64,000 nucleotides of DNA from Octopus vulgaris (GCA_951406725.2 OX597818.1:120962001-121026000); one strand, 5' to 3'; numbered from the stretch's first letter, positions 4,469 to 63,124 are shown. A program made the numbers and translations. Notes: generated by a model not told the origin, from the sequence alone.

Positions 4469-4566
4469 CTACGGACGCACGTTTCGAAATCAAGTTTTTA
4501 GGAAAGCATAAGAATTAAATATTAAATAATTCTACGTTACCCAAACTTCTTTTCTCTTCAGCGTAG
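4469..4566 (-). ncRNA. Type I hammerhead ribozyme (596-bp family, copy 1)
   Basis: Reverse complement reads CTACG-CTGAAGA-[69-nt stem II]-GAAAC-GTGC-GTC-CGTAG. Confidence 0.85.
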
Positions 4567-5064
4567 AATACTATAATCATAAATGATTATATATTGAATT
4601 TTGAGATACTAGAAGGCACCAACTCAACTCAGTATCAGAGCGAGCTAGAATCCGCAACTAGTATCACCAAACTCAAAGTGTGAATGAAAGGATTGTGTCA
4701 CCAGCCCCTTCCCACCCGCGTGTAGCCAAAACAAGATGCTATGGTCATCCACTGAGATAAAATATGGTTATCCGTAATAATGAAGGGTGAAATTAATTAA
4801 TTTGGAATAATTATCAATTACACCAAGTAGTCTTCGGCATGTAAAAGCCTCATTCGAGGAAAATTTAAGTAATACTAAGCAATAAAGGGTTTAGCAACGA
4901 ATTGCCTTACCACAGACCGAATTTAGAAATAGCAGTCAAAGAGTTATAGCTATTTCTTCTACTAAAAAGGGAGATCTCAGTAAAAAACACAGCAATTGGA
5001 AGGCAGACACAAACAGGTAAGAGAGAATGAATTGACGGCAATCTATCATACAATTTTAAGTTAT

Positions 5065-5162
5065 CTACGGACGCACGTTTCGAAATCAAGTTTTTAGGAA
5101 AGCATAAGAATTAAATATTAAATAATTCTACGTTACCCAAACTTCTTTTCTCTTCAGCGTAG
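5065..5162 (-). ncRNA. Type I hammerhead ribozyme (596-bp family, copy 2)
   Basis: Same motif as copy 1, offset by exactly 596 bp. Confidence 0.85.
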
Positions 5163-6019
5163 AATACTATAATCATAAATGATTATATATTGAATTTTGA
5201 GATACTAGAAGGCACCAACTCAACTCAGTATCAGAGCGAGCTAGAATCCGCAACTAGTATCACCAAACTCAAAGTGTGAATGAAAGGATTGTGTCACCAG
5301 CCCCTTCCCACCCGCGTGTAGCCAAAACAAGATGCTATGGTCATCCACTGAGATAAAATATGGTTATCAGTAATAATGAAGGGTGAAATTAATTAATTTG
5401 GAATAATTATCAATTACACCAAGTAGTCTTCGGCATGTAAAAGCCTCATTCGAGGAACATTTAAGTAATACTAAGCAATAAAGGGTTTATTAAAACTTGA
5501 TTTCGAAACGTGCGTCCGTAGATAACTTAAAATTGTATGATAGATTGCCGTCAATTCATTCTCTCTTACCTGTTTGTGTCTGCCTTCCAATTGCTGTGTT
5601 TTTTACTGAGATCTCCCTTTTTAGTAGAAGAAATAGCTATAACTCTTTGACTGCTATTTCTAAATTCGGTCTGTGGTAAGGCAATTCGTTGCTAAACCCT
5701 TTATTGCTTAGTATTACTTAAATTTTCCTCGAATGAGGCTTTTACATGCCGAAGACTACTTGGTGTAATTGATAATTATTCCAAATTAATTAATTTCACC
5801 CTTCATTATTACGGATAACCATATTTTATCTCAGTGGATGACCATAGCATCTTGTTTTGGCTACACGCGGGTGGGAAGGGGCTGGTGACACAATCCTTTC
5901 ATTCACACTTTGAGTTTGGTGATACTAGTTGCGGATTCTAGCTCGCTCTGATACTGAGTTGAGTTGGTGCCTTCTAGTATCTCAAAATTCAATATATAAT
6001 CATTTATGATTATAGTATT

Positions 6020-6117
6020 CTACGCTGAAGAGAAAAGAAGTTTGGGTAACGTAGAATTATTTAATATTTAATTCTTATGCTTTCCTAAAAACTTGATTTC
6101 GAAACGTGCGTCCGTAG
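6020..6117 (+). ncRNA. Type I hammerhead ribozyme (596-bp family, copy 3)
   Basis: CTACG (6020) CTGAAGA ... GAAAC (6101) GTGC GTC CGTAG; stem I CTACG/CGTAG; cleavage predicted after C6112. Confidence 0.85.
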
Positions 6118-6351
6118 ATAACTTAAAATTGTATGATAGATTGCCGTCAATTCATTCTCTCTTACCTGTTTGTGTCTGCCTTCCAATTGCTGTGTTTTTT
6201 ACTGAGATCTCCCTTTTTAGTAGAAGAAATAGCTATAACTCTTTGACTGCTATTTCTAAATTCGGTCTGTGGTAAGGCAATTCGTTGCTAAACCCTTTAT
6301 TGCTCATGTAAATATATATATATATATAAATAAATATATATATATAAATAA

Positions 6352-13467: not shown

Positions 13468-14530
13468 TATTTCTATTGGGAATATACCGGTGCAATAAGT
13501 TTTTGTTGCATGTAAAGTGTTTTCAAGCAGGTATTTGCTAAGCGCCAACTCTACACTTCTGAGTTCATATGGACGATCGACAAGAAGCTCACTGCAAACT
13601 TGCAGGATATTATTCACTCCATATTCACCCCTTGATGGTTGTATATATTTTGGCTAATAAAGTTTGACACATTTGATTTGTAAATCCTAAATTGTACCAG
13701 ATCGCACTTGGCAATTAAATGTTCGGGGCTGCCACATTTGTAGCATCTAGGCTTTTTGCCTTCTGCCACAACATATAAGCATTGCCCATTTTCCAAGTGG
13801 ATCTTATCCGGTAGGCTCTCGATAGAGGCCCCCTCAATCTGTATCGTCACCACTATTGTCTTCCCACCCCAAATGTCGCTAGGGTACACGGTGGTCTCCA
13901 AAATGTTTATATTGTTTAAATGGTAACAGATTGCCCCTGTTATCCATTTGTTAGGAAGCTCAGGAGGTACATTTTTAATAGTGATTCGACTCACTCTCTG
14001 GTTTTTATAGTATGGGACCATGATGATTTCATCATTTCCCAGAGACTCAGTAGAGTGAGCTTTTGCTACTTCCTGGTTAGGGAAGCGGACCACTACTGTG
14101 TTAAACTGGGGACCCCAGTTTATATATTCTTTTTCTTTCATTATGTTTTTTAAACATTTTTCTACATCAGTCTTTGTAATCTGTTCATTTAGTTTTTTGT
14201 TTTTCTAATAATTTTATTCATATTTGCACTTAGCGCGCGTACGTTCTTTTTTTCTCCTAATGCTTCCAAACTAGGAAAATGCTGGTCAATAAAAGAACGC
14301 GACCAGCGTTCTACAATAAAATTTCTCGACATTTTCTAATGTCAAGAAGAAAATTACAGAAATGAAATGGGGTTGAAACTGCCCCTAGGGGCGAATTCCT
14401 CCTTGGAAAAGCACTCAAACGAAAGTTGGGTGCCTTACACAACTTATTTACAAAAATGTACACAAAAATTGGGCTATAAATAGTCAAAATAAACGATTAC
14501 CTTCGGAGTCGAAGTGACAGCACGTCCATA
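13468..14530 (-). mobile_element. L1/Tx1-type ORF1 (gag-like, CCHC zinc knuckle) 5' element fragment
   Basis: ORF 13614-14141 with ITIKNVPPEL and an intact CYKCGSPEHLIAKC knuckle; the 5' end carries GGACGTG next to (GATA)n. Confidence 0.7.
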
Positions 14531-31436: not shown

Positions 31437-31499
<63 letters not shown>

Positions 31500-33002
31500 C
31501 ACACTAGATAAAACCGATGAAATAAAAGAATTAGACCAAAGCCAAACTTACAAATACTTAGGAATCCATGAACTAGATAAGACACAACACACACAAATGA
31601 AAGAGAAAATAAAAAAAGAATATTATAGACGAGTTAGATCAATACTAAAAACAGAGCTCAATGCTAAAAACAAGATAATAGGTATTAACACTTTAGCTGT
31701 CCCAGTTATAAGTTACAGCTACAATATCCTTAACTGGACACTAAATGAACTGACCAAAATAGATAGGAAAACAAGAAAAATAATGACAGGATCTAGGATG
31801 CATCACCCAAAATCTGACATAGAGAGACTATATATACAACGTATAGAAGGTGGTAGAGGCCTTATACAGCTGGAAAACTACTATAAAATAACCACCATAG
31901 GACTGCAAAAATATCTACTTCAGAAGGAAGGAAAACTGATACAAATAGCGGCAAAACACGAGCAAAACAAAAAACTGTTCTCAGTATTTAAGGAAGCTGA
32001 CAAATACAAACAAGAAATCATACCACCTAACAAATATAAAGAAGAAGAAGAAGAAGAAGAAGAAGAAGAAGAAGAAGAAGAAGAAGAAACAACAAAAGCT
32101 ATAAAACAAATGAAATCCAAACTAAAACTAGAACAGCAAAGAACCATGATAAAACGATGGCAAGAAAAGCCCCTTCATGGTAAACACTGGACTAAACTAA
32201 ATGCAAAAGAAATAGACAAAGAAAAATCCCAGCAATGGTTGAGAAGCTCAGGACTCAAAGCAGAGACAGAGGGATTTTTAATTGCAGCACAAGACCAAAG
32301 CCTCCCCACCAGAAATTACCAAAAACATGTAATGGAAAGAAATATAACAAATAACTGCAGAATATGTGGAGATGGACAAGAAACAATAAATCATATTATC
32401 TCTGGCTGCCCAGTCCTGGCTAAGAAGGAATATATTCACAGACATGACAGAGTTGGAACCTACATACACTGGAAGCTATGCTAACATTATGGAATAACAA
32501 CAGAAAAAAGATGGTATAGGCACACACCAGAAAAGGTCACAGAAAACGAGAAAGCAACCATACTCTGGGATATGCCGATACACACAGATAGAGAAATTAA
32601 GGCCAACAGACCAGATATAGTTGTCAGAGATCATGAAGAAAAAAAAATGCTTTCTAATTGATGTATCAATACCGGCAGATGACAACGTGTCTCTAAAAGA
32701 AATGGAGAAACTTTCAAAATACAAAGACCAGAATGTGGAATCTAAAAACAGAAACAATTCCTATCATAGTAGGTGCATTAGGCATGATAAAAAATATTCA
32801 GACAAATACATAACAAAAACACCAGGACTTACAAACACATATAGCATACAGAAAATTGCACTACTAGGCACTGCACACATCCTACGCAGAACACTTTCCA
32901 TACAATAACCATCAGAGCATCACAACAAATCACAGCACATACCCAAGGCACACAGAGCTGTGCTCGGTAGTGAAGTGAAAGCACGCTATAAAAAAATTAC
33001 CA
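31500..33002 (+). mobile_element. 5'-truncated R4/Dong-like non-LTR retrotransposon (restriction-like endonuclease) inserted in (TAA)n
   Basis: RT thumb, CRICGDGQETINHIISGC zinc motif, RHD, RPDIVV...IDVSIP nuclease motif; stop at 32482 and frameshifts; (AAT)n on both sides. Confidence 0.9.
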
Positions 33003-37435: not shown

Positions 37436-37475
<40 letters not shown>

Positions 37476-37704
37476 ACCTATCTATCTATCTATCTATCTA
37501 TCTATATGTATATATATATATATATATATAAATAAATATATATATATATATATATACGGTTAAGTAATTGAGATTCTAGTGAATTCTAAAGAATTCACAT
37601 GAATATGGTCCTTAACTAGGATGCACCGGAAATCTATATGGTGTTAACCATACGACAAGTGGGGTGATTACAAATAGGAAAAAAGCAACAAGAATGGATT
37701 AAAA

Positions 37705-37792
37705 TCTCGGTACGATCGTTTCGTACGAGGACATCTTTAATAAGCTACAAAAAATGCAGTGAATACAGATGGCTCGTACTCGTCAGCCGAAA
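37705..37792 (-). ncRNA. Type I hammerhead ribozyme (fold-back family, intact stem I)
   Basis: TTTCGG-CTGACGA-GTACGAG...CTCGTAC-GAAAC-GATC-GTA-CCGAGA; palindromic stem III ACGATCGT. Confidence 0.85.
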
Positions 37793-38958
37793 AAACATCA
37801 GAGAATTCCCAAACATCAAAAGGGGTAGATACAAAAGAGGTTGTAAGATTAGCTGCATTGAAGAAAGTTCGATTCATGGAGATCCGATGAAAGGTTTTAA
37901 ACCTATAGAATTTATGCATGTCTACATATAGCTCATATTGAATATTTGATTAAGTTGTGTGAAGAAATTTTCGGATACAGTCATGCAAAATTTCTGAAAA
38001 TCCGAGTAAGAGGCAAAGTGACTGCCATATCATGTAGAGGAAAGTCTGAGTAAAAGCATAGTGACTGTCATATCGTGTAGAGGAACAGATTGTTATTGAA
38101 ATCTACAAGAATCGCAGTTAAGTTCGATTTTTGGAGATCCGATGAAAAAGTCTTGAACTTACAAAATATGTGTATGTCCTTATAGTTCATAATCCAGTTT
38201 TGTGGAGAGATTTAGGGTACAATCATGCGAAAAATATCAGGGAATCCAAATGAGAAGCAAAATGACAGTCTTATATTGTAGCGGTTCAGGTTGTTAATGA
38301 AATTTTCAAGAATCACAGAAAGAGGAGGAGGGAGGTAGAAATTTAAACAGTTACTGCTATTTAAGCTTTCCTTTCTCTTTGACAGCTTAAATAGCAGTAA
38401 CTGTTTAAATTTCTACCTCCCTCCTCCTCTTTCTGTGATTCTTGAAAATTTCATTAACAACCTGAACCGCTACAATATAAGACTGTCATTTTGCTTCTCA
38501 TTCGGATTCCCTGATATTTTTCGCATGATTGTACCCTAAATCTCTCCAAAAAACTGGATTATGAACTATAAGGACATACACATATTTTGTAAGTTCAAGA
38601 CTTTTTCATCGGATCTCAAAAAATCGAACTTAACTGCGATTCTTGTAGATTTCAATAACAATCTGTTCCTCTACACGATATGACAGTCACTATGCTTTTA
38701 CTCAGACTTTCCTCTACATGATATGGCAGTCACTTTGCCTCTTACTCGGATTTTCAGAAATTTTGCATGACTGTATCCGAAAATTTCTTCACACAACTTG
38801 ATCAAATATTCAATATGAGCTATATGTAGACATGCATAAATTCTATAGGTTTAAAACCTTTCATCGGATCTCCATGAATCGAACTTTCTTCAATGCAGCT
38901 AATCTTACAACCTCTTTTGTATCTACCCCTTCTGATGTTTGGGAATTCTCTGATGTTT

Positions 38959-39046
38959 TTTCGGCTGACGAGTACGAGCCATCTGTATTCACTGCATTTT
39001 TTGTAGCTTATTAAAGATGTCCTCGTACGAAACGATCGTACGGAGA
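38959..39046 (+). ncRNA. Type I hammerhead ribozyme (fold-back family, G-G mismatch in stem I)
   Basis: Same motif, but the 3' strand of stem I is CGGAGA; duplicated at 41892-41979. Confidence 0.75.
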
Positions 39047-39072
39047 TTTTAATCCATTCTTGTTGCTTTTTT

Positions 39073-39288
<216 letters not shown>

Positions 39289-39337
39289 TAAGTATATGAA
39301 AGAATGGAGTTGAACGACTAGTTAACAAATATCCTTT

Positions 39338-39422
39338 ATTCTCGACATATGTTTCGAAGGCTGCATATTCCTAATTCCGAGGGAATAAGGAGTACATTAT
39401 GCAGATTTCTCATCAGGAAAAT
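39338..39422 (-). ncRNA. Type I hammerhead ribozyme in the PLE 3' region (pLTR)
   Basis: ATTTTC-CTGATGA-GAAATCTGCATA...TATGCAGCCTTC-GAAAC-ATAT-GTC-GAGAAT; palindromic stem III ACATATGT; duplicated at 42269-42353. Confidence 0.85.
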
Positions 39423-40211
39423 CAAGGAACTTATGTCGACATCAAAATGCACAAAAAACTTTTAGCTGACCGCTCTCAAGGAGCCCATGGCGATAATGAG
39501 TGTCTCTTTATAATGAGTGACGTCAGAGTGGCTGAATGTAGAAGAATCTAGAAGTTTCTAACGGTTCAAGAGTTCAAACGAAGTAGGAGGAGGGAGGCAT
39601 AAAAATAGTAAGGTGAGAGAGTGCAGGTTAAAAGAATGGTGGGTTTAAATGATTTCTTTTGTGAATGAGTGCCTGTGTGTGTGACTGTATATAACTGTCT
39701 TAATGTGTGTATATGTGTGTCTGAGTGCGTGATTGTGTTTGTGGATGGGTAGATGTCAGGAAACTGACAGCTGTAAGTTGAAAGGTCTGTATCTGTGTGT
39801 TCGATTATGTTTACTGTAGGGGAAGGAAAGTAGATAGCGAAAGGGAGAAAGAATCGGGCGAGGTGAGAGGCAACGCAAGAATGGATAGTAGTAATTGGGA
39901 ATATAAGAAAAACTTTTTTGACTATTGGGGTGAAATATAGCAAACGTTTTTTTGGAAATCGAGGGCTTATCTATATTAGTCACTATTTATATGGATGAAA
40001 TTTACTACTATCCATTCTTGCATTGCCTCTCAATGCGTTTTTTCTTACAATGACATAGTTTAGAAGAAAGACCGGCTTCGCGTTTAGCTTTTCAAATTTC
40101 TTGCGACGTTATGTTTATCTTGAACAGAGTTATCTTCATGTTTATGTTTAAAAGAGTTCTAAATAAGGGGAGATAATTAGTGATTTCTTCCGGTGTAAGG
40201 GAGATAATCGC

Positions 40212-41385
40212 TTAAAATTTTTTTCCTTTCCCTTGGTGTGAATTTCTCTGTATCAGTATGTTGGCATGGTTAAGTCTGGGCTTGTACTTTTCAATGAAGA
40301 ATGTTTCCTTGTTTAGTCTAATTTGTGTTGATGATCCGATAGCACATTGGTAAAATGGAAAGATTAAAAATTGTGGTCGTAGTTGCTTTGCGCATTTCTC
40401 AATGTGCTCACTAAAAGGTATCATTCTGTATTCTGGGAATGCAATCTGTTGTCGATGCAGTGTGCATCTACGTCTGAGTGATAGTCCCGTGGATCCCACG
40501 TAGTCTTGGTGGCAGCCCGAGCATTTTATGACATAAATTATATTTTCAGAGGCACAAGTAAAGTTAGATTTGATCTTGAATTTCTGTCCCTCTTTAAAGA
40601 GGAATTCTGATCCTTCTAGCAGGTTTGGACATGTTGCACAGTTCGATCTACCACATTTTTTTACTTTTGCATCCGTAATTTCAGAAAACAATTTTGCCTT
40701 TGTGAGAATCTTTTTAAGTGATTTAGGTTGTTTGTAGCTTTTAATGATTTGGTGTATGTTTAGAATTTCCTTTAATTTGGGGTCCTTATGAAGTATTGGT
40801 AAGTTCTGGGTGATGATGGTGAAGGCTTCTTTGTTTCTGGGGTTGTATGTAGATATGTAAGGTAGTATTTTCGGGGAAGGTGTGTTGTTGTGTTGAACTT
40901 TTCTTAAAGTTTCTATGTTGATTTCTGTTGCACGTCTGATCCCATCCTCTATGAGTTGAGCTGGGTAATGTCTGTCAATTAGGGTGTTTTTGAGTTCTTG
41001 CAGTCTAAAGTACCTGGTATTTTGTTCTGACACTATTGTGCATATCCTTCTTGCAAGGTTGAAGGGGATGTTTGTTTTAGTGTGTCTTGGGTGGCATGAA
41101 TTAAAAAGAAGGTATTGTTTGGCGTCTGTGGCTTTGTAAAAAATGTCTGTTTCTATTTTAAGGTTAATTTTTTTAATTAGTATATCCAAGAACGGGAGCT
41201 CCTTTTGGTTGTATTCCATTGTGAACTGTATATTTGGGTTTATGCTGTTCAATAGGTTTTTAAATTTTAAGAGTTTATCTGTGTTTTCATTCCAGAGTAT
41301 AAAACAATCGTCTAAGAATCGTTTCCAATTCTCTTTTATGTATTGAGAAAGGGGGTTTCCAAAGATTGATAAAGATTCCTGGTAA
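40212..41385 (-). CDS. PLE RT C-terminus/thumb and GIY-YIG endonuclease (5'-truncated, open)
   Basis: 394-aa ORF in the track. Sister copies: 43079-44325 (-, one frameshift) and 44618-46227 (+, two nonsense codons). Confidence 0.9.
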
Positions 41386-41891
41386 ATATAGTTCAACTTT
41401 CAAAAATGAATTGGGTACAAATAATCCCTTCCTTAAGAAAATTACAAAAAAAAAAAAAAAAAACCAAACAACCCACGAACAACCCCCAACTATCCTCCAT
41501 ACACTAAAAACAGAAATCACCCACAACCAACCTTTGCAAACCACGCAAGACCTAACAGGGAACTAGCTGACAGACGACGCGTCTATGAAATAAATTACAA
41601 CAAAAACAGAACACACCAACAACATCCTAAAACTACGACCCATTGTTGCTGGCCCAACCTGTGAAACACACAGACTAAGTCTATTTATGGACATCCTCCT
41701 GAAGCCCTTCCTTAAACATATCGATAGCCATATCAGAGATGACTTAGATATGTTAAACCACCTCCCAAAAAAGCCAAGGAAGAAACAATCCTGGTTTCAT
41801 TTGATGTAGTTAACTTGTATACCAGTATACCTCATAATTACAACCTCTTTTGTATCTACCCCTTCTGATGTTTGGGAATTCTCTGATGTTT

Positions 41892-41979
41892 TTTCGGCTG
41901 ACGAGTACGAGCCATCTGTATTCACTGCATTTTTTGTAGCTTATTAAAGATGTCCTCGTACGAAACGATCGTACGGAGA
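41892..41979 (+). ncRNA. Type I hammerhead ribozyme (duplicate of 38959-39046)
   Basis: Same motif inside the 2.93-kb tandem duplication. Confidence 0.7.
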
Positions 41980-42005
41980 TTTTAATCCATTCTTGTTGCT
42001 TTTTT

Positions 42006-42092
<87 letters not shown>

Positions 42093-42113
42093 ATGTATAT
42101 ATATATATATATA

Positions 42114-42215
<102 letters not shown>

Positions 42216-42268
42216 AATATAAGTATATGAAAGAATGGAGTTGAACGACTAGTTAACAAATATCCTTT

Positions 42269-42353
42269 ATTCTCGACATATGTTTCGAAGGCTGCATATT
42301 CCTAATTCCGAGGGAATAAGGAGTACATTATGCAGATTTCTCATCAGGAAAAT
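42269..42353 (-). ncRNA. Type I hammerhead ribozyme (duplicate of 39338-39422)
   Basis: Same motif, offset by 2931 bp. Confidence 0.8.
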
Positions 42354-45300
42354 CAAGGAACTTATGTCGACATCAAAATGCACAAAAAACTTTTAGCTGA
42401 CCGCTCTCAAGGAGCCCATGGCGATAATGAGTGTCTCTTTATAATGAGTGACGTCAGAGTGGCTGAATGTAGAAGAATCTAGAAGTTTCTAACGGTTCAA
42501 GAGTTCAAACGAAGTAGGAGGAGGGAGGCATAAAAATAGTAAGGTGAGAGAGTGCAGGTTAAAAGAATGGTGGGTTTAAATGATTTCTTTTGTGAATGAG
42601 TGCCTGTGTGTGTGACTGTATATAACTGTCTTAATGTGTGTATATGTGTGTCTGAGTGCGTGATTGTGTTTGTGGATGGGTAGATGTCAGGAAACTGACA
42701 GCTGTAAGTTGAAAGGTCTGTATCTGTGTGTTCGATTATGTTTACTGTAGGGGAAGGAAAGTAGATAGCGAAAGGGAGAAAGAATCGGGCGAGGTGAGAG
42801 GCAACGCAAGAATGGATAGTAGTAATTGGGAATATAAGAAAAACTTTTTTGACTATTGGGGTGAAATATAGCAAACGTTTTTTTGGAAATCGAGGGCTTA
42901 TCTATATTAGTCACTATTTATATGGATGAAATTTACTACTATCCATTCTTGCATTGCCTCTCAATGCGTTTTTTCTTACAATGACATAGTTTAGAAGAAA
43001 GACCGGCTTCGCGTTTAGCTTTTCAAATTTCTTGCGACGTTATGTTTATCTTGAACAGAGTTATCTTCATGTTTATGTTTAAAAGAGTTCTAAATAAGGG
43101 GAGATAATTAGTGATTTCTTCCGGTGTAAGGGAGATAATCGCTTAAAATTTTTTTCCTTTCCTTGGTGTGAATTTCTCTGTATCAGTATGTTGGCATGGT
43201 TAAGTCTGGGCTTGTACTTTTCAATGAAGAATGTTTCCTTGTTTAGTCTAATTTGTGTTGATGATCCGATAGCACATTGGTAAAATGGAAAGATTAAAAA
43301 TTGTGGTCGTAGTTGCTTTGCGCATTTCTCAATGTGCTCACTAAAAGGTATCATTCTGTATTCTGGGAATGCAATCTGTTGTCGATGCAGTGTGCATCTA
43401 CGTCTGAGTGATAGTCCCGTGGATCCCACGTAGTCTTGGTGGCAGCCCGAGCATTTTATGACATAAATTATATTTTCAGAGGCACAAGTAAAGTTAGATT
43501 TGATCTTGAATTTCTGTCCCTCTTTAAAGAGGAATTCTGATCCTTCTAGCAGGTTTGGACATGTTGCACAGTTCGATCTACCACATTTTTTTACTTTTGC
43601 ATCCGTAATTTCAGAAAACAATTTTGCCTTTGTGAGAATCTTTTAAGTGATTTAGGTTGTTTGTAGCTTTTAATGATTTGGTGTATGTTTAGAATTTCCT
43701 TTAATTTGGGGTCCTTATGAAGTATTGGTAAGTTCTGGGTGATGATGGTGAAGGCTTCTTTGTTTCTGGGGTTGTATGTAGATATGTAAGGTAGTATTTT
43801 CGGGGAAGGTGTGTTGTTGTGTTGAACTTTTCTTAAAGTTTCTATGTTGATTTCTGTTGCACGTCTGATCCCATCCTCTATGAGTTGAGCTGGGTAATGT
43901 CTGTCAATTAGGGTGTTTTTGAGTTCTTGCAGTCTAAAGTACCTGGTATTTTGTTCTGACACTATTGTGCATATCCTTCTTGCAAGGTTGAAGGGGATGT
44001 TTGTTTTAGTGTGTCTTGGGTGGCATGAATTAAAAAGAAGGTATTGTTTGGCGTCTGTGGCTTTGTAAAAAATGTCTGTTTCTATTTTAAGGTTAATTTT
44101 TTTAATTAGTATATCCAAGAACGGGAGCTCCTTTTGGTTGTATTCCATTGTGAACTGTATATTTGGGTTTATGCTGTTCAATAGGTTTTTAAATTTTAAG
44201 AGTTTATCTGTGTTTTCATTCCAGAGTATAAAACAATCGTCTAAGAATCGTTTCCAATTCTCTTTTATGTATTGAGAAAGGGGGTTTCCAAAGATTGATA
44301 AAGATTCCTGGTAAATATAGTTCAACTTTCAAAAATGAATTGGGTACAAATAATCCCTTCCTTAAGAAAATTACAAAAAATAAAAAAAGAAAAACCAAAC
44401 AACCCACGAACAACCCCCAACTATCCTCCATACACTAAAAACAGAAATCACCCACAACCAACCTTTGCAAACCACGCAAGACCTAACAGGGAACTAGCTG
44501 ACAGACGACGCGTCTATGAAATAAATTACAACAAAAACAGAACACACCAACAACATCCTAAAACTACGACCCATTGTTGCTGGCCCAACCTGTGAAACAC
44601 ACAGACTAAGTCTATTTATGGACATCCTCCTGAAGCCCTTCCTTAAACATATCGATAGCCATATCAGAGATGACTTAGATATGTTAAACCACCTCCCAAA
44701 AAAAGCCAAGGAAGAAACAATCCTGGTTTCATTTGATGTAGTTAACTTGTATACCAGTATACCTCATAATTATGGACTAGAGGCAATACAGTTCTGGCTG
44801 GACCAATTTCCGGAAGAAATACCAAAAAGGATCAGTAAAGAATTCATTACTAAATCAATTGAATTCATTCTACATAATAACCACTTCATGTTTGACAATA
44901 CATTTTACCGTCAAAAATCCGGAATTGCTATGGGTACAAGGGCAGCACCAGTCATTGCGAACCTAACAATGGGCTACATGGAAATAATCATTTAACAGGA
45001 ATCTTTATCAATCTTTGGAAACCCCTTTCTCAATACATAAAAGAGAATTGGAAACGATTCTTAGACGATTGTTTTATACTCTGGAATGAAAACACAGATA
45101 AACTCCTAAAATTTAAAAACCTATTGAACAGCATAAACCCAAATATATAGTTCACAATGGAATACAACCAAAAGGAGCTCCCGTTCTTAGATATACTAAT
45201 TAAAAAAATTAACCTTAAAATAGAAACAGACATTTTTTACAAAGCCACAGACGCCAAACAATACCTTCTTTTTAATTCATGCCACCCAAGACACACTAAA

Positions 45301-46420
45301 ACAAACATCCCCTTCAACCTTGCAAGAAGGATATGCACAATAGTGTCAGAACAAAATACCAGGTACTTTAGACTGCAAGAACTCAAAAACACCCTAATTG
45401 ACAGACATTACCCAGCTCAACTCATAGAGGATGGGATCAGACGTGCAACAGAAATCAACATAGAAACTTTAAGAAAAGTTCAACACAACAACACACCTTC
45501 CCCGAAAATACTACCTTACATATCTACATACAACCCCAGAAACAAAGAAGCCTTCACCATCATCACCCAGAACTTACCAATACTTCATAAGGACCCCAAA
45601 TTAAAGGAAATTCTAAACATACACCAAATCATTAAAAGCTACAAACAACCTAAATCACTTAAAAAGATTCTCACAAAGGCAAAATTGTTTTCTGAAATTA
45701 CGGATGCAAAAGTAAAAAAATGTGGTAGATCGAACTGTGCAACATGTCCAAACCTGCTAGAAGGATCAGAATTCCTCTTTAAAGAGGGACAGAAATTCAA
45801 GATCAAATCTAACTTTACTTGTGCCTCTGAAAATATAATTTATGTCATAAAATGCTCGGGCTGCCACCAAGACTACGTGGGATCCACGGGACTATCACTC
45901 AGACGTAGATGCACACTGCATCGACAACAGATTGCATTCCCAGAATACAGAATGATACCTTTTAGTGAGCACATTGAGAAATGCGCAAAGCAACTACGAC
46001 CACAATTTTTAATCTTTCCATTTTACCAATGTGCTATCGGATCATCAACACAAATTAGACTAAACAAGGAAACATTCTTCATTGAAAAGTACAAGCCCAG
46101 ACTTAACCATGCCAACATACTGATACAGAGAAATTCACACCAAGGGAAAGGAAAAAATTTTAAGCGATTATCTCCCTTACACCGGAAGAAATCACTAATT
46201 ACCTCCCCTTATTTAGAACTCTTTTAAACATAAACATGAAGATAACTCTGTTCAAGATAAACATAACGTCGCAAGAAATTTGAAAAGCTAAACGCGAAAC
46301 CGGTCTATCTTCTAAACTATGTCATTGTAAGAAAAAATTTTTTAATATTCTTCAGACATATTGACGCAAATATATATATTTTTTAACCTTTAAGCCTTCT
46401 GTAGTTTTTTCACTTCTTAC

Positions 46421-47824: not shown

Positions 47825-47961
47825 GCGAAGTTTGCTCTTGACAATAAATTTGGTGGTGTCATGCTCTGGGCTTTCGATGTAGATGACTTCAAAGGAATAT
47901 GTAACACTCAAAAAGTTTACCCACTTTTAAAGAGCGTGAACAAAGTGCTTAATGGAGGATC
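47825..47961 (+). CDS. GH18 chitinase-like protein, exon 8
   Basis: AKFALDNKFGGVMLWAFDVDDFKGICNTQKVYPLLKSVNKVLNGG (GGxMxWxxDxDDF motif); phase 0 to 2. Confidence 0.95.
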
Positions 47962-50004: not shown

Positions 50005-51500
50005 GTGAGTATTTTTTCTTACGTTACTTTCTTCACTAAACATTAACATTTAACTTTTTTATATATTAACAAGAGCTACAATATATTAGTAAAGTTAGTG
50101 TTTGATATAATGAACATCTGTCGAAATCGACCTAGAAAAATTTAGTAGGTAACAATAAAAGCATTATTAGTCACTGAGAATTATTTTAATTTAATCGGCA
50201 AGTATATTTTTCTTGATTATTTCTATTTAACCTTTTTATGTTAACACCAACTATTGATTCTACATACAGATAGCAACAGAAACATAATATGATTTGCCCC
50301 GTTTTCTTTTTGAATGATAAAACTCACGTAGATAAAAATTTCCTGGTCTTGATAAATCAGCATTTCCCATTTAACCATAGATACAGGAAAAGTTTTTATA
50401 GACGTGCAGCGGACTCGCGGTCGAGGGATCGCGGGTTCGAATCTCAGACTGGGTAATGTGTATGTTTATGAGCGAAACACCTAAGCCCCACGCAGCTCCG
50501 GCAGAAGGTAATGGCGAACTTCTGCTGACTCTTTCGCCACAACTTTCTCTCACTCTTTACTCCTGCATCTTGCAGCTCACCTGCTACGGACCGGCGTCCC
50601 ATCCAGGTGGGGAACCTATACGCCAAGGAAACTGGGAAACCGGCCCTTATGAGCCAGGCGTGGCTCGAGAAGGAACAAACAATGATTGGTTAGGATAAAT
50701 TTAGAGTTGGTGAAACGATAGCAGTTTAATGATATCTACAATGCTATTTTACTAACATTTAGCAGCGAAGTATCCTCATTGTTTACAAATGTCCACTGTA
50801 TTATTAGTCGAATAAGAAATGTACAGGAGACTAATATCTGCTGTCCATGTAAAATTTCGAACCAACTGGAACAGCCCTATGTAGACACTCTACCTTCTAG
50901 AAATAACATCCTAATCTCCTTCAAATCACATCCTACCATTCTAAAACGGGTAGAACATTTACATTGGGTAGCATTGTCCCCGGTACATTCTTCGTTCTCA
51001 ATGATTAAGTTCAGCAGAATAAGTTTTAGAGTAATATCCTAAATTTATTTAATTATGTTATTCTTTTTCAATCACTTAAGTACATCTATCCTCGTGTATC
51101 ACAGATGTTTGGTTCCAAAATAAGAACGTGTTAAATGAATAAATGATAAATGAATAATAAAACGTGGAGAAAATAGATTTCATTCTGAGACCCAAAGTTG
51201 TCCTGGTTACTGTGTATAATCGCTGGAGGGCACCCTTGACTGACCTAACTATTGAATGTACTATGTTACCTCGTATCGGTGAGAAATGAATTAGTGATAA
51301 ACGAGGATAGAAGTATATTTATTTTTGATTCAGATATTTAAAGCTTCCATTTAAAATAATTTAAAATTAACCAGTAGAATTAATATTCTACTGGTTACTT
51401 TTAATCATTTGAAAACGATCATTTTACTCGTTACAGTAAAATATTAATTGCTTGCATCTTTGCAAACTTATGACTATTTTTATTTTGTTTAATTGCTTAG

Positions 51501-51673
51501 GTCCTGTAGATGTATGCAAAGGTAAATCTGGAAGTTATCCAGACCCAGTCTCATGTAAGAGCTTTTACATATGCACGAATGGAAATGGATTTAGTGCCCT
51601 CTGCCCTACTAATCAGTTATTCGATCATGTTTCAAATAGATGTGTTGAATCCTCTCGGGCCAAATGTTCATGA
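51501..51673 (+). CDS. GH18 chitinase-like protein, exon 10 (CBM14/peritrophin-A chitin-binding domain, stop)
   Basis: PVDVCKGKSGSYPDPVSCKSFYICTNGNGFSALCPTNQLFDHVSNRCVESSRAKCS*, six Cys. Total CDS is 1371 nt = 456 aa + stop. Confidence 0.9.
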
Positions 51674-52388: not shown

Positions 52389-52666
52389 TAATACTTCATG
52401 AAGGTAAAGAATATAATTTTGTGGCCATTTGAAATAAAAAAAATTTAAGTGAAAAAATTGGTGGATTTTTTTCTCTTACTACTTGATAAATACTTATAAA
52501 GATTTTATCCTATTTTTAAATTATATATATATATATATATATATTAACAATCAAGGAACGGCCATAATAGGCCATTCACCCACTAGAAATAACAGCCAAA
52601 AGCTTTAACCGCAAAATAACGTCAATTCCGTAAACCAGGAGAAAATTGAAAAACATTTACCCTGTA

Positions 52667-52773
52667 ATTTCTTAGACGATGCACCGTTTCATCTTCTGTT
52701 TAATGGAAAACTAACCTGATTAAATTAAATCAAGCCAATCTACCATAGGCCCTTAGATTCATCAGTAAGAAAT
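52667..52773 (-). ncRNA. Type I hammerhead ribozyme (493-bp family, inverted copy)
   Basis: Reverse complement of the motif at 53073. Confidence 0.85.
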
Positions 52774-53072
52774 AGCCAAACCGGAACAGATATTTTTCAC
52801 GAGGCATTCTCATTGCTACCTCATCAATATCTGACCTAAAATTTTCAAATCGTCGCACTCGCTGGAGGCAAAAGAATTCTACAAAATTTTTTTTGCCACC
52901 CTATATTGATTAATTATGAATTTTCTGGTTAATTCCGTAATGGAATCGGCGGCTTATATTTATTTGCTGCCGATAAATTTGGCGCGAGTGCGACGATTTG
53001 AAAATTTTAGGTCAGATATTGACGAGGTAGCAATGAGAATGCCTCGTGAAAAATATCTGTTCCGGTTTGGCT

Positions 53073-53179
53073 ATTTCTTACTGATGAATCTAAGGGCCTA
53101 TGGTAGATTGGCTTGATTTAATTTAATCAGGTTAGTTTTCCATTAAACAGAAGATGAAACGGTGCATCGTCTAAGAAAT
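53073..53179 (+). ncRNA. Type I hammerhead ribozyme (493-bp family)
   Basis: ATTTCTTA-CTGATGA-ATCT...AGAT-GAAAC-GGTGCATC-GTC-TAAGAAAT; 8-bp stem I; stem III ACGG(TGCA)TCGT. Confidence 0.9.
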
Positions 53180-53565
53180 TACAGGGTAAATGTTTTTCAA
53201 TTTTCTCCTGGTTTACGGAATTGACGTTATTTTGCGGTTAAAGCTTTTGGCTGTTATTTCTAGTGGGTGAATGGCCTATTATGGCCGTTCCTTGATTGTT
53301 AATGTTGAACTTAAAAATGGTTTATGACTATTTAATTTTTTCCCACTAGGCCGCTGGAGGCAAAAGAATTCTACAAAATTTTTTTTTGCCACCCTATATT
53401 GATTAATTATGAATTTTCTGGTTAATTCCGTAATGGAATCGGCGGCTTATATTTATTTGCTGCCGATAAATTTGGCGCGAGTGCGACGATTTGAAAATTT
53501 TAGGTCAGATATTGACGAGGTAGCAATGAGAATGCCCCGTGAAAAATATCTGTTCCGGTTTGGCT

Positions 53566-53672
53566 ATTTCTTACTGATGAATCTAAGGGCCTATGGTAGA
53601 TTGGCTTGATTTAATTTAATCAGGTTAGTTTTCCATTAAACAGAAGATGAAACGGTGCATCGTCTAAGAAAT
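53566..53672 (+). ncRNA. Type I hammerhead ribozyme (493-bp family)
   Basis: Same motif at +493. Confidence 0.9.
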
Positions 53673-54058
53673 TACAGGGTAAATGTTTTTCAATTTTCTC
53701 CTGGTTTACGGAATTGACGTTATTTTGCGGTTAAAGCTTTTGGCTGTTATTTCTAGTGGGTGAATGGCCTATTATGGCCGTTCCTTGATTGTTAATGTTG
53801 AACTTAAAAATGGTTTATGACTATTTAATTTTTTCCCACTAGGCCGCTGGAGGCAAAAGAATTCTACAAAATTTTTTTTTGCCACCCTATATTGATTAAT
53901 TATGAATTTTCTGGTTAATTCCGTAATGGAATCGGCGGCTTATATTTATTTGCTGCCGATAAATTTGGCGCGAGTGCGACGATTTGAAAATTTTAGGTCA
54001 GATATTGACGAGGTAGCAATGAGAATGCCTCGTGAAAAATATCTGTTCCGGTTTGGCT

Positions 54059-54165
54059 ATTTCTTACTGATGAATCTAAGGGCCTATGGTAGATTGGCTT
54101 GATTTAATTTAATCAGGTTAGTTTTCCATTAAACAGAAGATGAAACGGTGCATCGTCTAAGAAAT
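54059..54165 (+). ncRNA. Type I hammerhead ribozyme (493-bp family)
   Basis: Same motif at +986. Confidence 0.9.
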
Positions 54166-54387
54166 TACAGGGTAAATGTTTTTCAATTTTCTCCTGGTTT
54201 ACGGAATTGACGTTATTTTGCGGTTAAAGCTTTTGGCTGTTATTTCTAGTGGGTGAATGGCCTATTATGGCCGTTCCTTGATTGTTAATGTTGAACTTAA
54301 AAATGGTTTATGACTATTTAATTTTTTCCCACTAGGCCGCTGGAGGCAAAAGAATTCTACAAAATTTTTTTTGCCACCCTATATTGA

Positions 54388-54442
<55 letters not shown>

Positions 54443-54513
54443 TATATATATATGCACATATATATATATATACATATGTAAATATATATATACATATATA
54501 CATATATACATAT

Positions 54514-54613
<100 letters not shown>

Positions 54614-55929: not shown

Positions 55930-56622
55930 TTACAGCAGGGTATAATTTATCATTTGCAAGAGTATAATATTTTCTGGTGATGTAGCACAGTCTTTTTTCA
56001 CGTAATGTTTTTGTTGGTTAAATGTTAAAGTAGGTGTCCATGTGGGTATATAACTACTGACGTAAGAATACGTATCAGAATCATCAGAGAGGTCATATGA
56101 TTGGGTTATTGACCCAGCAATATCGTTCTTTTGGAAAGGAATAGAGTCTTGTACCCATGAGTTTTCCGTATGAGATATATTCAGGTCTTTTGAGATGGAA
56201 TCCTTCAGGGTAGAACTTAAATCGTGAGCTTGTGTGAGATCATTCGCAATAGAATCTCGCAAGTATGACAACTTTTTGCTCACTGGCGATACTTTATAAG
56301 AAGCTTGTCCATTTCTAAAGTTTGTGTCTTGACATTGTTCTTCCTTCGTCCACTTGTCTGTAATATCTCCAACTGAAGGTTGACGTATGAATATATCCAA
56401 CATTCCTCTAGGGAGCTCTTTGTTGTATTCGTTCAAGTTTTCTGCTGATTCAGTCCCTTCCTCTGTTGGAATATTGCCACTTATTTTATCATGACAACAT
56501 CTTATTGAGGAAGAACTATCAATTTCACCGGAATGTTTGCCACCGTCTTCAGAGGAAATCTGCATCAGTTTTCCAGTCGCTGTTGCTAAATGTTGCTGCA
56601 AACTGTGAATCAGAAGTTCTTT
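55930..56622 (-). CDS. Uncharacterised protein, large (possibly terminal) exon, Ser/Asp-rich
   Basis: Acceptor tatttttag|AAAGAA; ~230 open codons KELLIHSLQQHLATATGKLMQISSEDGG...; in frame with the exon at 59473-59628. Confidence 0.65.
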   Translation of the reverse strand, partial: KELLIHSLQQHLATATGKLMQISSEDGGKHSGEIDSSSSIRCCHDKISGNIPTEEGTESAENLNEYNKELPRGMLDIFIRQPSVGDITDKWTKEEQCQDTNFRNGQASYKVSPVSKKLSYLRDSIANDLTQAHDLSSTLKDSISKDLNISHTENSWVQDSIPFQKNDIAGSITQSYDLSDDSDTYSYVSSYIPTWTPTLTFNQQKHYVKKDCATSPENIILLQMINYTLL

Positions 56623-60326: not shown

Positions 60327-60913
60327 CTGCACGCGATTGTGCAATGCCCGAAGGTGACTGAACTCTGGGCTTATGTCGAACACCTGCTGTCGCATTCGAG
60401 AAGTGTACAACTGTCGAGCGAATCTGTAATGAAGATAGTTCCGCCGACCTTCCTGAATAGGGAGGAGCGAGCCTGTTTCCTCTCGGTAGTTGCTATGGCG
60501 AAAGAAGTAGTGTGGAAGACGAGAGTAAAAGGAATTGCAACAGGCATGTTTATCTCCAGTCTCGAGCTAATCGACTTTTTCGTTTTCCACATGAAACGGA
60601 AAATAAGGCTGGAGAAGAAATGCCTGTCGCAAAGTGTGTTTCGTAAAAGATGGAAGTCTATAGCAAGTATGTTGCGAGTGAAAGAACCTGTTTAATCAAG
60701 AATGTGAAAAAGGAGAAAGCAAAGTCTTCAGTGTGAGTATGTGGTTTGTGGGGTCAACCACGTCCTCCGCTTCATTTTTTGTTATTCACTCATTATCATT
60801 TAATTGTATATATTTTAATTATTTGTTTATTCATGTTTCGTCTCATTCGATACCCTGACCCAACGTTTGTTTTGTCCCCTCTTTTTCTCAACTTTATGGT
60901 GAATAAAGAAATA
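60327..60913 (+). mobile_element. Tx1/L1-clade LINE 3' end (short copy)
   Basis: LHAIVQCPKVTELWAYV... and a 3'UTR ending AATAAAGAAATA; near-identical to ~61701-62290. Confidence 0.85.
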
Positions 60914-61011
60914 CTCTCTCTCGACGTTTCTCTTTCTCTTTGTCTTTTTCGGCGTCTCTCTCTCTTTCTCAGTGTCTCTATCCCTCTCTCTCTCTCTCTC
61001 TCTCTCTTTCT

Positions 61012-62290
61012 CGGAAGCTGTCCTTGAAAGGGAGGGCGGAGGTTGCAGAAGTGTTTATCGCCTCTGTAATCACTTACCGCCTAACCGTAGTGCCTTGCCC
61101 CGATTCGTGGCTGAACAAACTGGAACGCATGCTCTTTCGCTTTTTGTGGAGGGGCAGCAGACCTCTTGTAAGGCGCTCTATTTGCTGCCAAAAGCGCTGG
61201 AGGGTGGGTTAGGGATGCCGTGGCTAAAAATGCGCAGACATGCGCTCAGGCTTAGGCACCTCTGGATTTACCTGGACGGTTAGCAGGTGTGGTCTCCGTT
61301 TGTCAAGCTGTTATTTCCACAGTTCACATCGTTTAACGAACTGAACCCATGAATCAAGTGTAGACCGAGGTTGGGCATGTAGCATGCAGAGTGCTATCAG
61401 GCACTCGTGCTTCTCTCCCAGTCGGGCAACGCCGGTGGCGGGGGTACTACCTCGTTCTTCTATAGAGGGTTAGTAGAGTTTAAGTGAGACGACATCCTAG
61501 GAGAAACTCTGGGCTTCGACGAAAATCAACTGGCCAGCCTGTTCCAAAGAACATTCCGTCCGGGGCCTATGGATAATTACCAAAAGTCCCTGGCCTGGCA
61601 ATGTTACAGAGGAGCTTTACCGGTTCGAGATAAGCTCTTTAGACATGGGTGTGCACCTTCGCCGGTTTGTGCAAGATGTAAGAGGGACAGGGAAACTGTC
61701 CTGCACGCGATTGTGCAATGCCCGAAGGTGACTGAACTCTGGGCTTATGTCGAACACTTGCTGTCGCATTCGAGAAGTGTACAACTGTCGAGCGAATCTG
61801 TAATTAAGATAGTTCCGCCGACCTTCCTGAATAGGGAGGAGCGAGCCTGTTTTCTTTCGGTAGTTGCTATGGCGAAAGAAGTAGTGTGGAAGACGAGAGT
61901 AAAAGGAATTGCAACAGGCATGTTTATCTCCAGTCTCGAGCTAATCGACTTTTACGTTTTCCACATGAAACGGAAAATAAGGCTGGAGAAGAAATGCCTG
62001 TCGCAAAGTGTGTTTCGTAAAAGATGGAAGTCTATAGCAAGTATGTTGCGAGTGAAAGAACCTGTTTAATCGAGAATGTGAAAAAGGAGAAAGCAAAGTC
62101 TTCAGTGTGAGTATGTGGTTTGTGGGGTCAACCACGTCCTCCGCTTCATTTTTTGTTATTCACTCATTATCATTTAATTGTATATATTTTAATTATTTGT
62201 TTATTCATATGTTTCGTCTCATTCGATACCCTGACCCCAACGTTTGTTTTGTCCCCTCTTTTTCTCAACCTTATGGTGAATAAAGAAATA
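61012..62290 (+). mobile_element. Tx1/L1-clade LINE 3' part (RT thumb and zf-RVT)
   Basis: RKLSLKGRAEV, FRFLWRG, GGLGMP, LPVRDKL...CARC...ETVLHAIVQC; several stops. Confidence 0.9.
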
Positions 62291-63124
62291 CTCTCTCTCT
62301 TTCTCGGCATCTCTCTCTCTTTCTCAGCGTCTCTATCACTCCCTCTCTCTTTCTCGACATCTCTCTCTCTTTCTCAGCATCTCTCTCCTTTTCTCGGCGT
62401 CTCTCTCTCTCTCTCTCTCTCTTTCTGGTAATGTAACTGATTGTTGGATGTCAAATATACGAGTGACAGAGTAAGATGATTAAATATTTTACTGATGACG
62501 AATTGGATGCTGTTTACATGATTTATGACAAAATGATTGATGGTAGGATGCCTGATATAGAAGGAGTGATAGATTGTAGGATCGATGAATATTGTTTTAT
62601 TGACTATTGATCTGATTATGATTAGGTGATGTAGGTATTACGAATGATGGCAAAGGAACTGATAGAATAGAATGGCGGTATGCATAGATAACAAATGATA
62701 AGATCGCCAATAAGATTGATTGGTGAGTGGTCTATTATTTGACGTTTTATCTGTTTAATTGTCAAATATTACATGATCTAATATTTGTTAGTCGACTTTA
62801 TATGATGGTTTAATATTTACTAATTAAGTATTTTGTGGGTGAATAGTATCTTGTGGTCTAATAATTACGTCTCAACTCTTTGCTGCTTTAATCTTTAGCC
62901 ATCCGTTGACTTACTGTTGATGCTTTTACTATCATTATGAGTATTCTGATTTTAGAATTTGTATACTCTGTCTCTGCAAAAGACGATAACAGGATTGGCG
63001 CAAGGAAGATCATCAAATTAAACACTGTATCATAAAATTAGTAAAAGCATTTGAAAGAGCCTTAGATCACAATACCGAAGTGTATAACATTTATTATGTC
63101 TTAAGTGTATATATTAATTGAAAT

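What the first reader, a model, noticed from the sequence alone, without database searches (positions are those of the whole stretch)
52543..54395. 493-nt retrozyme-like array: one intact hammerhead per monomer and no coding capacity
Seen: three near-identical 493-bp monomers plus an inverted partial copy. Each has a complete type I hammerhead (8-bp stem I, CUGAUGA/GAAAC core, GUC site). The two outer ends stop at different monomer positions, both at A/T microhomology with the (TA)n target. Established: tandem hammerhead repeats (non-LTR retrozymes) self-cleave to monomers that circularise and are thought to be mobilised by PLE reverse transcriptases. Inference: this is a cephalopod retrozyme family copied from a circular or multimeric RNA. 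The monomer is larger than the animal retrozymes I recall (a few hundred nt at most).
Basis: partly seen in the sequence, partly recalled or inferred. Interest (0 to 1): 0.88.

Follow-up and report, generated by a model that had tools for sequence, protein, structure and literature searches.

The report
Ribozyme repeat riding Penelope-type retrotransposons
This is one of an estimated thousand young insertions of a non-coding 493-base repeat with a predicted self-cutting RNA motif in every unit, and its back-to-back arrays with two fixed ends show the same insertion pattern as the genome's Penelope-like retrotransposons, which likely copy it from cut and re-joined RNA.

Summary
In detail: (TA)n, a 320-nt inverted arm, 3.1 direct 493-nt units, (TA)n, four complete type I hammerhead motifs, no long reading frame. 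It is one copy of a young dispersed family (2,850 exact matches of a 26-mer; about 1,100 loci by extrapolation). Copies are not randomly permuted. Most are head-to-head pairs of arrays whose outer ends are fixed: one 132 nt, the other 239 nt after the predicted cleavage site (72 of 73 classifiable pairs). Autonomous Penelope-like elements (PLEs) of this genome follow the same one-short-end, one-tailed-end rule (10 of 11 pairs) with 32-42-nt tails; here the tail is 107 nt. None of 96 stretches has an attached PLE reading frame, and no parent was found. Hints that templates were ribozyme-cut: three deletions at the cleavage site, arm ends enriched just after it in one of two samples, variants fixed across whole arrays. 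Mixed arrays show multimers also serve as templates. Self-cleavage, expression and circles are untested. The unit size is within the published range. Verdict: a new non-LTR retrozyme family whose insertions carry the PLE signature; known kind, unusually good material for testing the mechanism.

The parts
52522..52544 (.). left (TA)n target remnant, overlapping the arm end by A/T microhomology
   Evidence: sequence
52543..52862 (-). inverted arm, unit positions 306 to 132; its outer 3' end is the short end (site A)
52667..52773 (-). type I hammerhead motif in the inverted arm, predicted cleavage after 52675
52860..52862 (.). head-to-head junction, 3-nt microhomology between the two arms
52860..54395 (+). 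direct arm, 3.1 units, unit positions 181 to 239; its outer 3' end is the long (tailed) end (site B)
53073..53179 (+). hammerhead motif 1: stem I 8 bp, CUGAUGA, stem II 4 bp carrying a long hairpin (68 nt between core halves), GAAAC, self-complementary stem III, GUC; predicted cleavage after 53171
53172..53664 (+). complete cleavage-to-cleavage unit 1 (493 nt, 36% G+C; predicted circular fold -133 kcal/mol, z -3.5)
53249..53303 (+). site A module inside unit 1 (conserved box shared with sister families, hairpin, CC-rich end)
53566..53672 (+). hammerhead motif 2, predicted cleavage after 53664
53665..54157 (+). complete cleavage-to-cleavage unit 2
54059..54165 (+). hammerhead motif 3, predicted cleavage after 54157
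54290..54395 (+). the 107-nt tail between site A and site B, ending in a hairpin and an ACCCT motif before the A/T microhomology
54393..54596 (.). right (TA)n target remnant and adjoining microsatellite

Best explanation
The array is one insertion of a young, dispersed, non-coding repeat family whose head-to-head arrays end at two fixed sites in (TA)n, and it was likely made by the reverse transcriptase-endonuclease of a Penelope-like element copying ribozyme-cut, re-joined (probably circular) RNA of the unit. Steps. (1) Shown: each unit holds a type I hammerhead motif with a self-complementary stem III. Inferred: neighbouring hammerheads in a tandem transcript pair up and cut, giving unit-length and multi-unit RNAs; a lone unit would cut poorly, so a circle would be stable. 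(2) Inferred from published retrozymes: a host ligase closes some of these RNAs. (3) Inferred from the anatomy and from the in vitro work on the anole PLE: a PLE protein, probably as a dimer, nicks both strands of a (TA)n tract and primes two cDNAs, one at site A (132) and one at site B (239). Shown: 72 of 73 classifiable pairs have one end of each. (4) Shown: arms run from under one to over ten units, stop at variable inner points and mostly join with short overlaps or short fillers. Inferred: the two cDNAs are joined by end-joining. (5) Shown: both arms of a locus are as alike as units within an arm. Inferred: both come from one RNA or from sister RNAs of one source locus. PLE mobilisation alone I put at about 0.9; the full chain with cut and re-joined RNA at about 0.6.
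For: Family: 265 matches in the 40 best of 915 candidate regions; 2,850 exact 26-mer matches, control 0. Ends: 50 of 52 pairs A+B in best-hit loci (binomial p 5e-14 for 50 of 51); 24 of 27 in a position-ordered sample, no A+A or B+B; two loci are shared, so 72 A+B, 1 A+A, 4 with one unclassified end among 77 distinct pairs. (TA)n flanks: 51 of 52 on each side, both sides in 22 of 27. Same rule in autonomous RT+GIY-YIG elements of this genome: 10 of 11 two-ended stretches have one short and one tailed end (domains), and in the 596-nt sister family 10 of 15 pairs. Literature: inverted truncated copy plus tail at one end is the PLE pattern (PMC8557442); the anole PLE extends both strands and starts at two internal sites that define the tail (PMC11167929). 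Common source: mean substitutions per unit pair 1.85 within arms, 1.71 across arms, 5.01 between loci (133 units, subfamily A); 0.58, 0.84, 3.77 (55 units, subfamily B); variants seen in one locus only and fixed in all its full units in 8 of 30 and 3 of 11 multi-unit loci. Cut templates: three independent deletions at the cleavage site among 289 junctions; inner ends within 20 nt after the site 10 of 63 versus 2.7 expected, within 30 nt 14 versus 4.2. Between subfamilies the three catalytic-region changes fall on tolerated places: core position 7, the cleavage base, and a double change that keeps loop III self-complementary (tolerance recalled).
Against: No autonomous partner was found: five young RT+GIY-YIG families and one old Naiad-like family share no significant similarity with the unit. 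No RNA-level evidence of cutting or circles was obtainable. The end enrichment after the cleavage site is absent in the best-hit sample (2 of 112 versus 4.8 expected; that sample was selected for full units), two of the counted loci are fold-back junctions counted twice and one end is ragged. One of the three deletions has a 3-nt microhomology and could be slippage; none was seen among 67 junctions of the second sample. Many arrays are mosaics (for example L034, L035, L047, L060, L076, L086, L087), so a single one-unit circle cannot be the template there, and variants shared by the two arms sit at differing unit offsets. 'Private' variants may come from unsampled parents (under a tenth of the estimated loci were seen). 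No compensatory pair changes within the family's hammerhead stems (0 of 33 pairs). In the anole PLE, hammerhead mutants did not change insertion in vitro, and 8 of 9 Xenopus retrozyme dimers did not cleave in vitro.
Confidence: 0.6

Rival explanations
1. The family is a non-autonomous PLE copied only from uncut, linear read-through transcripts of existing arrays. The hammerhead is an inherited passenger, and arrays regain length at the DNA level by slippage or unequal crossing-over.
For: Mosaic arrays and repeated blocks fit a multi-unit template or later duplication; two loci carry the same rare variant at the same two unit positions (L086, L087). 275 of 289 cleavage junctions are intact. Unprocessed RNA was the main substrate of the anole PLE in vitro (PMC11167929).
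Against: Linear copying with internal starts can only shorten arrays, yet arrays of up to ten units carry locus-wide variants in both inverted arms at under 1% divergence. Deletions and inner ends cluster at the cleavage site. Four unrelated hammerheads of this design in the window keep core, stem I pairing and a self-complementary stem III with different letters.
Confidence: 0.3
2. The arrays are ordinary pseudo-LTR pieces shed, insertion by insertion, from an autonomous PLE whose terminal repeat is this sequence.
For: Anatomy, target and tail are those of PLE termini. Xenopus retrozymes often match pLTRs (24 of 57 families), so a pLTR origin in the past is plausible.
Against: No PLE reading frame is attached in 96 stretches, including 38 loci taken in chromosome order; up to ten full units follow each other with nothing between them, which copying of pLTR-ORF-pLTR does not give.
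Confidence: 0.05
3. The arrays arise at the DNA level (rolling-circle DNA transposition, extrachromosomal DNA circles or satellite growth with fold-back inversion), without an RNA step.
For: Tandem units, (TA)n targets and a few fold-back junctions (for example L045, L054, L237, L246) also occur with DNA rolling-circle elements (recalled).
Against: Fixed 3' ends facing outwards with variable inner 5' ends, the one-short-one-tailed rule shared with RT-encoding PLEs, and a hammerhead in every unit.
Confidence: 0.04
4. The structure is an assembly artefact (collapsed or folded-back reads).
For: Near-identical units next to low-complexity DNA.
Against: Dozens of loci on many contigs show the same two ends, locus-specific variants and different inner junctions; contigs of independent public runs hold the unit and its ends next to (TA)n.
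Confidence: 0.01

Closest known systems
Animal non-LTR retrozymes (Cervera and de la Pena 2020, PMC7229834; Li, Clavereau and Pollet 2026, 10.64898/2026.07.22.740005)
   Same: Non-coding tandem units, one type I hammerhead each, low G+C, structured predicted circle, co-occurrence with PLEs; weak palindromic stem III as in the dimer-acting salamander type; size inside the 51-972 bp range.
   Different: Here most copies are young, dispersed head-to-head double arrays in (TA)n with two fixed ends; the parts of these papers that I read do not describe insertion ends of this kind. Stem II carries a long hairpin. Cleavage and circles are shown there, not here. No matching pLTR was found here, unlike 24 of 57 Xenopus families.
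Endonuclease-bearing Penelope-like elements (Neptune/Poseidon type; anole PAc, PMC11167929; overview PMC8557442; rotifer copies PMC3846280)
   Same: Inverted 5'-truncated copy joined head-to-head, A/T-rich or (TA)n target, two alternative 3' ends with a tail at one end, hammerhead upstream of the start sites.
   Different: No RT or GIY-YIG reading frame; tail 107 nt rather than 30-40 nt (32-42 nt in four autonomous families of this genome); up to ten full units per arm.
Non-autonomous Chlamys PLEs such as MRC1 of Chlamydomonas (PMC8557442, passage)
   Same: Non-coding PLE derivatives that insert as multi-copy head-to-tail arrays.
   Different: Those generally resemble an autonomous family at the 3' end and belong to a clade described as lacking canonical hammerheads; here the hammerhead is complete and the partner is unknown.
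Twin priming of LINE-1 (recalled, no call)
   Same: Two primers on opposite strands give an inverted 5' part joined by microhomology.
   Different: There the second priming site is variable; here both sites are fixed and arms can overlap on the template by whole units.

Membership tests
non-LTR retrozyme | two or more consecutive tandem units, each with a complete type I hammerhead motif | tested here: met
   275 of 289 junctions intact across the family
non-LTR retrozyme | no protein-coding capacity, no attached ORF | tested here: met
   longest stop-free stretch 68 codons; no PLE frame attached in 96 stretches
non-LTR retrozyme | small unit, low G+C, stable predicted fold | tested here: met
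   493 nt, 36% G+C, circular fold z -3.5 against 60 shuffles; range 51-972 bp in the 2026 preprint, slightly above the 150-450 bp of PMC7229834
non-LTR retrozyme | no LTR, primer-binding site or polypurine tract of plant LTR retrozymes | tested here: inconclusive
   no terminal direct repeats apart from the tandem units; PBS and PPT were not searched for specifically
non-LTR retrozyme | self-cleavage in vitro | not testable with these tools
   only folding energies and indirect scars
non-LTR retrozyme | expressed as unit-length linear and circular RNA | not testable with these tools
   no run on record as RNA; only assembled contigs available
non-LTR retrozyme | co-occurs with autonomous PLEs | tested here: met
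   young families with open frames of 738-811 codons
non-autonomous Penelope-like element | tandem and inverted 5'-truncated arrangement with fixed 3' ends | tested here: met
non-autonomous Penelope-like element | [quoted passage not shown] | tested here: met
   72 of 73 classifiable pairs; tail 107 nt, longer than the published 30-40 nt
non-autonomous Penelope-like element | microsatellite or A/T-rich target | tested here: met
non-autonomous Penelope-like element | 3' end similar to the pLTR of an autonomous family | tested here: inconclusive
   none among five young families and one old Naiad-like family; the survey of PLE families was not exhaustive
autonomous Penelope-like element | ORF with telomerase-like RT and GIY-YIG endonuclease between pLTRs | tested here: not met
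Rfam hammerhead families | match at gathering score | tested here: not met
   the motif was found by a pattern scan instead

The most novel reading that the evidence does not exclude
This genome hosts a whole group of unrelated-looking hammerhead repeats (493-nt, 596-nt and older families) that share a two-site 3' module about 100 nt long. A PLE protein dimer is loaded asymmetrically on ribozyme-made RNA circles, one subunit at each site, and spins two cDNAs round the circle in opposite target strands, so every insertion is a frozen record of rolling-circle reverse transcription. That would be direct genomic evidence for the proposed but unshown retrozyme life cycle, with a partner PLE not yet described.
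Probability: 0.35. Interest if true: 0.8.

Novelty: new member of a known kind. Interest (0 to 1): 0.55.

Why it matters
How animal retrozymes get back into the genome is proposed, not shown, and the steps that give PLEs their tandem, inverted and tailed insertions are still open. Here an estimated thousand very young insertions tie a hammerhead repeat to the PLE insertion pattern by anatomy, give a near-absolute rule (one short end, one tailed end) that any model of PLE integration must explain, and name exact RNA start sites and a cleavage site to test. A 493-nt RNA that a PLE enzyme copies many times into (TA)n in trans would also be a compact substrate for biochemistry and for RNA-templated insertion tools.

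Tried and rejected
Rfam: nothing at gathering score; low-score hits were microRNA models on the inverted repeat. Arm ends exactly at the cleavage site: four seemed so but were alignment limits. A general phase preference of inner ends: weak only (Rayleigh p 0.03-0.29). Correlated arm lengths, as expected if two enzymes chased each other round one circle: not seen (rho -0.22, p 0.12). Both arms starting in the same unit: not supported, offsets differ. Periodic variants as proof of multimer circles: rejected as proof, later duplication fits too. Parent search: protein, family and DNA searches recovered five young RT+GIY-YIG families and one dead family; none resembles the unit; 20 plus 30 loci of sister families had no PLE frame nearby. 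Naiad lead: the 3' ends of two published Octopus Naiad consensus sequences share an 11-nt block with site A by eye, but genomic copies gave p 0.03-0.95 in 8 comparisons and are 73-94% alike, hence old; not accepted as the present partner. A short-stem-II version of this hammerhead as a parent sign: only 4 matches, all deletion variants. Expression: no RNA holder listed; contigs of runs guessed to be RNA from four studies cover the unit, and one such run covers the neighbouring exon but not introns; contig depths cannot rank expression or show ends, so no conclusion. Covariation inside the family: none. Earlier scan notes: none by sequence or place, none for the two-end wording.

Full report
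1. The observation. The window reads (TA)n, an inverted arm of 320 nt (52543-52862), a direct arm of 3.1 units of 493 nt (52860-54395) and (TA)n. The arms overlap by 3 nt. A pattern scan finds four type I hammerhead motifs with 8-bp stem I, CUGAUGA, a 4-bp stem II base, GAAAC and GUC; 1 of 20,000 shuffles of the unit gave such a hit. Rfam misses it; 68 nt lie between the core halves. Stem III is worth -0.2 kcal/mol alone but -17.5 as a 12-bp duplex between two copies, the design that works as a dimer in tandem transcripts (PMC4209133, passages; PMC7229834). The longest stop-free stretch is 68 codons. Below, unit position 1 is the base after the predicted cleavage site.

2. The family. The genome (2.8 Gb) gave 265 matches in the 40 best of 915 candidate regions, the 150 listed at 95-100% identity, and a second subfamily about 91% identical to the first (42 alignment differences). 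An exact 26-mer occurs 2,850 times, its control 0 times; the first 100 matches fall in 38 loci over 95 Mb of one contig, which extrapolates to about 1,100 loci. I examined two samples: 60 best-hit stretches (39, 20, plus the window) and those 38 loci in chromosome order; two loci are in both, so 96 stretches in all.

3. Anatomy. Copies are not random permutations. In the best-hit sample 52 head-to-head pairs were found; 50 have one outer end near position 132 (site A) and the other near 239 (site B), one has A+A, one has an unclassified end; 51 of 52 have (TA)n on each side; arms reach 5,156 nt. In the ordered sample 24 of 27 pairs are A+B, three have A plus an unclassified end, none is A+A or B+B; 12 arms stand alone (6 A, 6 B), some with a partner too short to align. 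Over 77 distinct pairs: 72 A+B, 1 A+A, 4 unclassified. Inner ends vary; the arms overlap by 1-13 nt in 34 of 52 and 11 of 27 pairs, otherwise abut or carry short fillers. No PLE reading frame is attached: tblastn hits in these stretches lie outside the (TA)n-bounded arrays or in the wrong orientation (with one query protein, with five).

4. The same rule in PLEs. The genome holds at least five young families with RT (four of them with a recognisable C-terminal GIY-YIG region by Pfam or alignment) and open frames of 738-811 codons. In 11 stretches with two outward-facing ends, 10 have one short end and one end with a tail of 32-42 nt (that both ends belong to one insertion is read from orientation). 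This is the published PLE pattern: an inverted truncated copy and a 30-40-bp tail often at one end only (PMC8557442, passages; PMC3846280, passages). The purified anole PLE nicks and extends both strands, starts at two internal RNA sites downstream of its hammerhead, and the tail is the sequence between them (PMC11167929, main text). I therefore read sites A and B as the two reverse-transcription starts and the 107 nt between them as an unusually long tail. A 596-nt hammerhead repeat elsewhere in the window behaves alike (10 of 15 pairs, ends near 198 and 293-308), and it and older families share a conserved box before site A and a hairpin plus ACCCT before site B (3,918 matches of a box motif).

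5. What was the template? Units of one locus differ less than units of different loci, and the two arms are as alike as units within an arm (1.85, 1.71, 5.01 substitutions per pair in subfamily A, 133 full units; 0.58, 0.84, 3.77 in B, 55 units; the T-run region was left out). In 11 of 41 multi-unit loci a variant seen nowhere else is in every full unit, which needs a one-unit bottleneck and regrowth at this insertion or at an unsampled parent. Other arrays are mosaics or show variants recurring every 2, 4 or 5 units, so multi-unit templates, template switching or later duplication occur too. Two signs point to RNA cut at the hammerhead. Three independent deletions of 9-15 nt lie at the cleavage site among 289 junctions (L039, L047, L071), against three other deletions of 4 nt or more away from the T-run; none was found among 67 junctions of the ordered sample, and one has a 3-nt microhomology. 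Inner ends fall within 20 nt after the site in 10 of 63 arms of the ordered sample (2.7 expected, p 6e-4) and within 30 nt in 14 (4.2 expected, p 1e-4; 2e-3 after removing two fold-back double counts), but not in the best-hit sample (2 of 112, 4.8 expected), which was selected for full units. The 30-nt window was chosen after seeing the data. These are hints, not proof. Between subfamilies the stems I, II and III are unchanged and the catalytic-region changes fall on core position 7, the cleavage base and the centre of loop III, which stays self-complementary; there is no two-sided pair change within the family. Across four different hammerheads in the window, core and palindromic stem III persist with different letters.

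6. The partner was not found. The unit matches none of the five young families. A resemblance by eye to the 3' end of published Octopus Naiad elements (PMC8557442 supplement part 24) led to 262 genomic matches, but the similarity was weak against shuffles and the copies are old. The survey was limited to best-scoring candidates, so a partner may have been missed.

7. RNA. No run holding the unit is on record as RNA; only assembled contigs could be laid. Nothing is concluded on expression, ends or circles.

8. Comparison with what is known. [quoted passage not shown] Their families span 51-972 bp, so 493 nt is ordinary; they argue for PLE origin from co-occurrence and pLTR similarity, sampled no mollusc, and found cleavage in 1 of 9 dimers. 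Cervera and de la Pena (PMC7229834; passages and parts 2-4 of 6) showed cleavage and circles in coral, mussel and axolotl and proposed PLE mobilisation. A 2026 octopus repeat annotation has no occurrence of 'retrozyme' or 'ribozyme' in its main text (PMC13282606, passages). Nine literature searches (open-access library only) listed no paper on cephalopod retrozymes or on two fixed ends in retrozyme insertions. Earlier notes of this scan describe PLE-type tandem arrays without hammerheads in other genomes (unchecked), which cautions that arrays of this kind may not need a ribozyme.

9. Verdict. Real, young and dispersed; a new member of a known kind. It works like a non-autonomous PLE (about 0.9). 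That its templates are hammerhead-cut and re-joined RNAs is my best reading (about 0.6 for the whole chain). The interest lies less in the element than in the strict end rule, the long tail and the scars at the cleavage site, which make the retrozyme life cycle and the PLE insertion mechanism directly testable. Interest 0.55.

Noticed in passing
window 4276-6304: A second, different hammerhead repeat (596-nt unit) inserted head-to-head in (TA)n; its family (1,921 candidate regions) has two preferred ends about 100 nt apart (10 of 15 pairs) and shares the 3' module with the 493-nt unit.
   Followed up: yes
L033:2800-3035, L129:2500-2790, L195-L213, L262-L291: Further, older non-coding families share the same site A box and a second end about 100 nt on; a gapped motif of the box has 3,918 matches, control 0.
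   Followed up: partly
window 38905-46337: A truncated RT+GIY-YIG Penelope-like insertion, head-to-head, with a hammerhead in its long 3' part, inside a 2.9-kb tandem duplication at 99.5% identity; close relatives have open frames of 811 codons but a different, short terminal repeat.
   Followed up: partly
window 37437-37846 and 41838-42007: Fragments of another repeat with a hammerhead of the same design (long stem II, self-complementary stem III).
   Followed up: no
window 51500-51673 and 47825-47961: Last exon of a gene with a chitin-binding CBM_14 domain, 0.87 kb upstream of the array; the earlier exon looks like a family-18 chitinase end (recalled; no Pfam hit). Read-through would fold the inverted arm and first unit into a 320-bp hairpin.
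   Followed up: partly
L031:7044-7084: A single-armed eight-unit array whose inner end is joined to (TA)n through about 41 nt of unknown origin.
   Followed up: no
L053:3008-5926; L252:3392-4839; L182:3790-4200: Insertions sit next to or inside each other's (TA)n ends, including two subfamilies side by side and a 596-nt arm at the end of an autonomous element.
   Followed up: no
L110-L119, L162-L168: Autonomous PLE families of this genome show one short and one tailed end in 10 of 11 two-ended stretches, both ends at internal TATA-like letters.
   Followed up: yes
window 55933-56622 (-); 31438-32481; 60327-62375; 13617-14204 (-): A 230-codon open frame without Pfam match, and LINE-type fragments (zf-RVT, zinc knuckle), one partly duplicated.
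   Followed up: no
window 53518-53588: One low-depth contig of run X1 skips 69 nt here; what lies between is not known.
   Followed up: no
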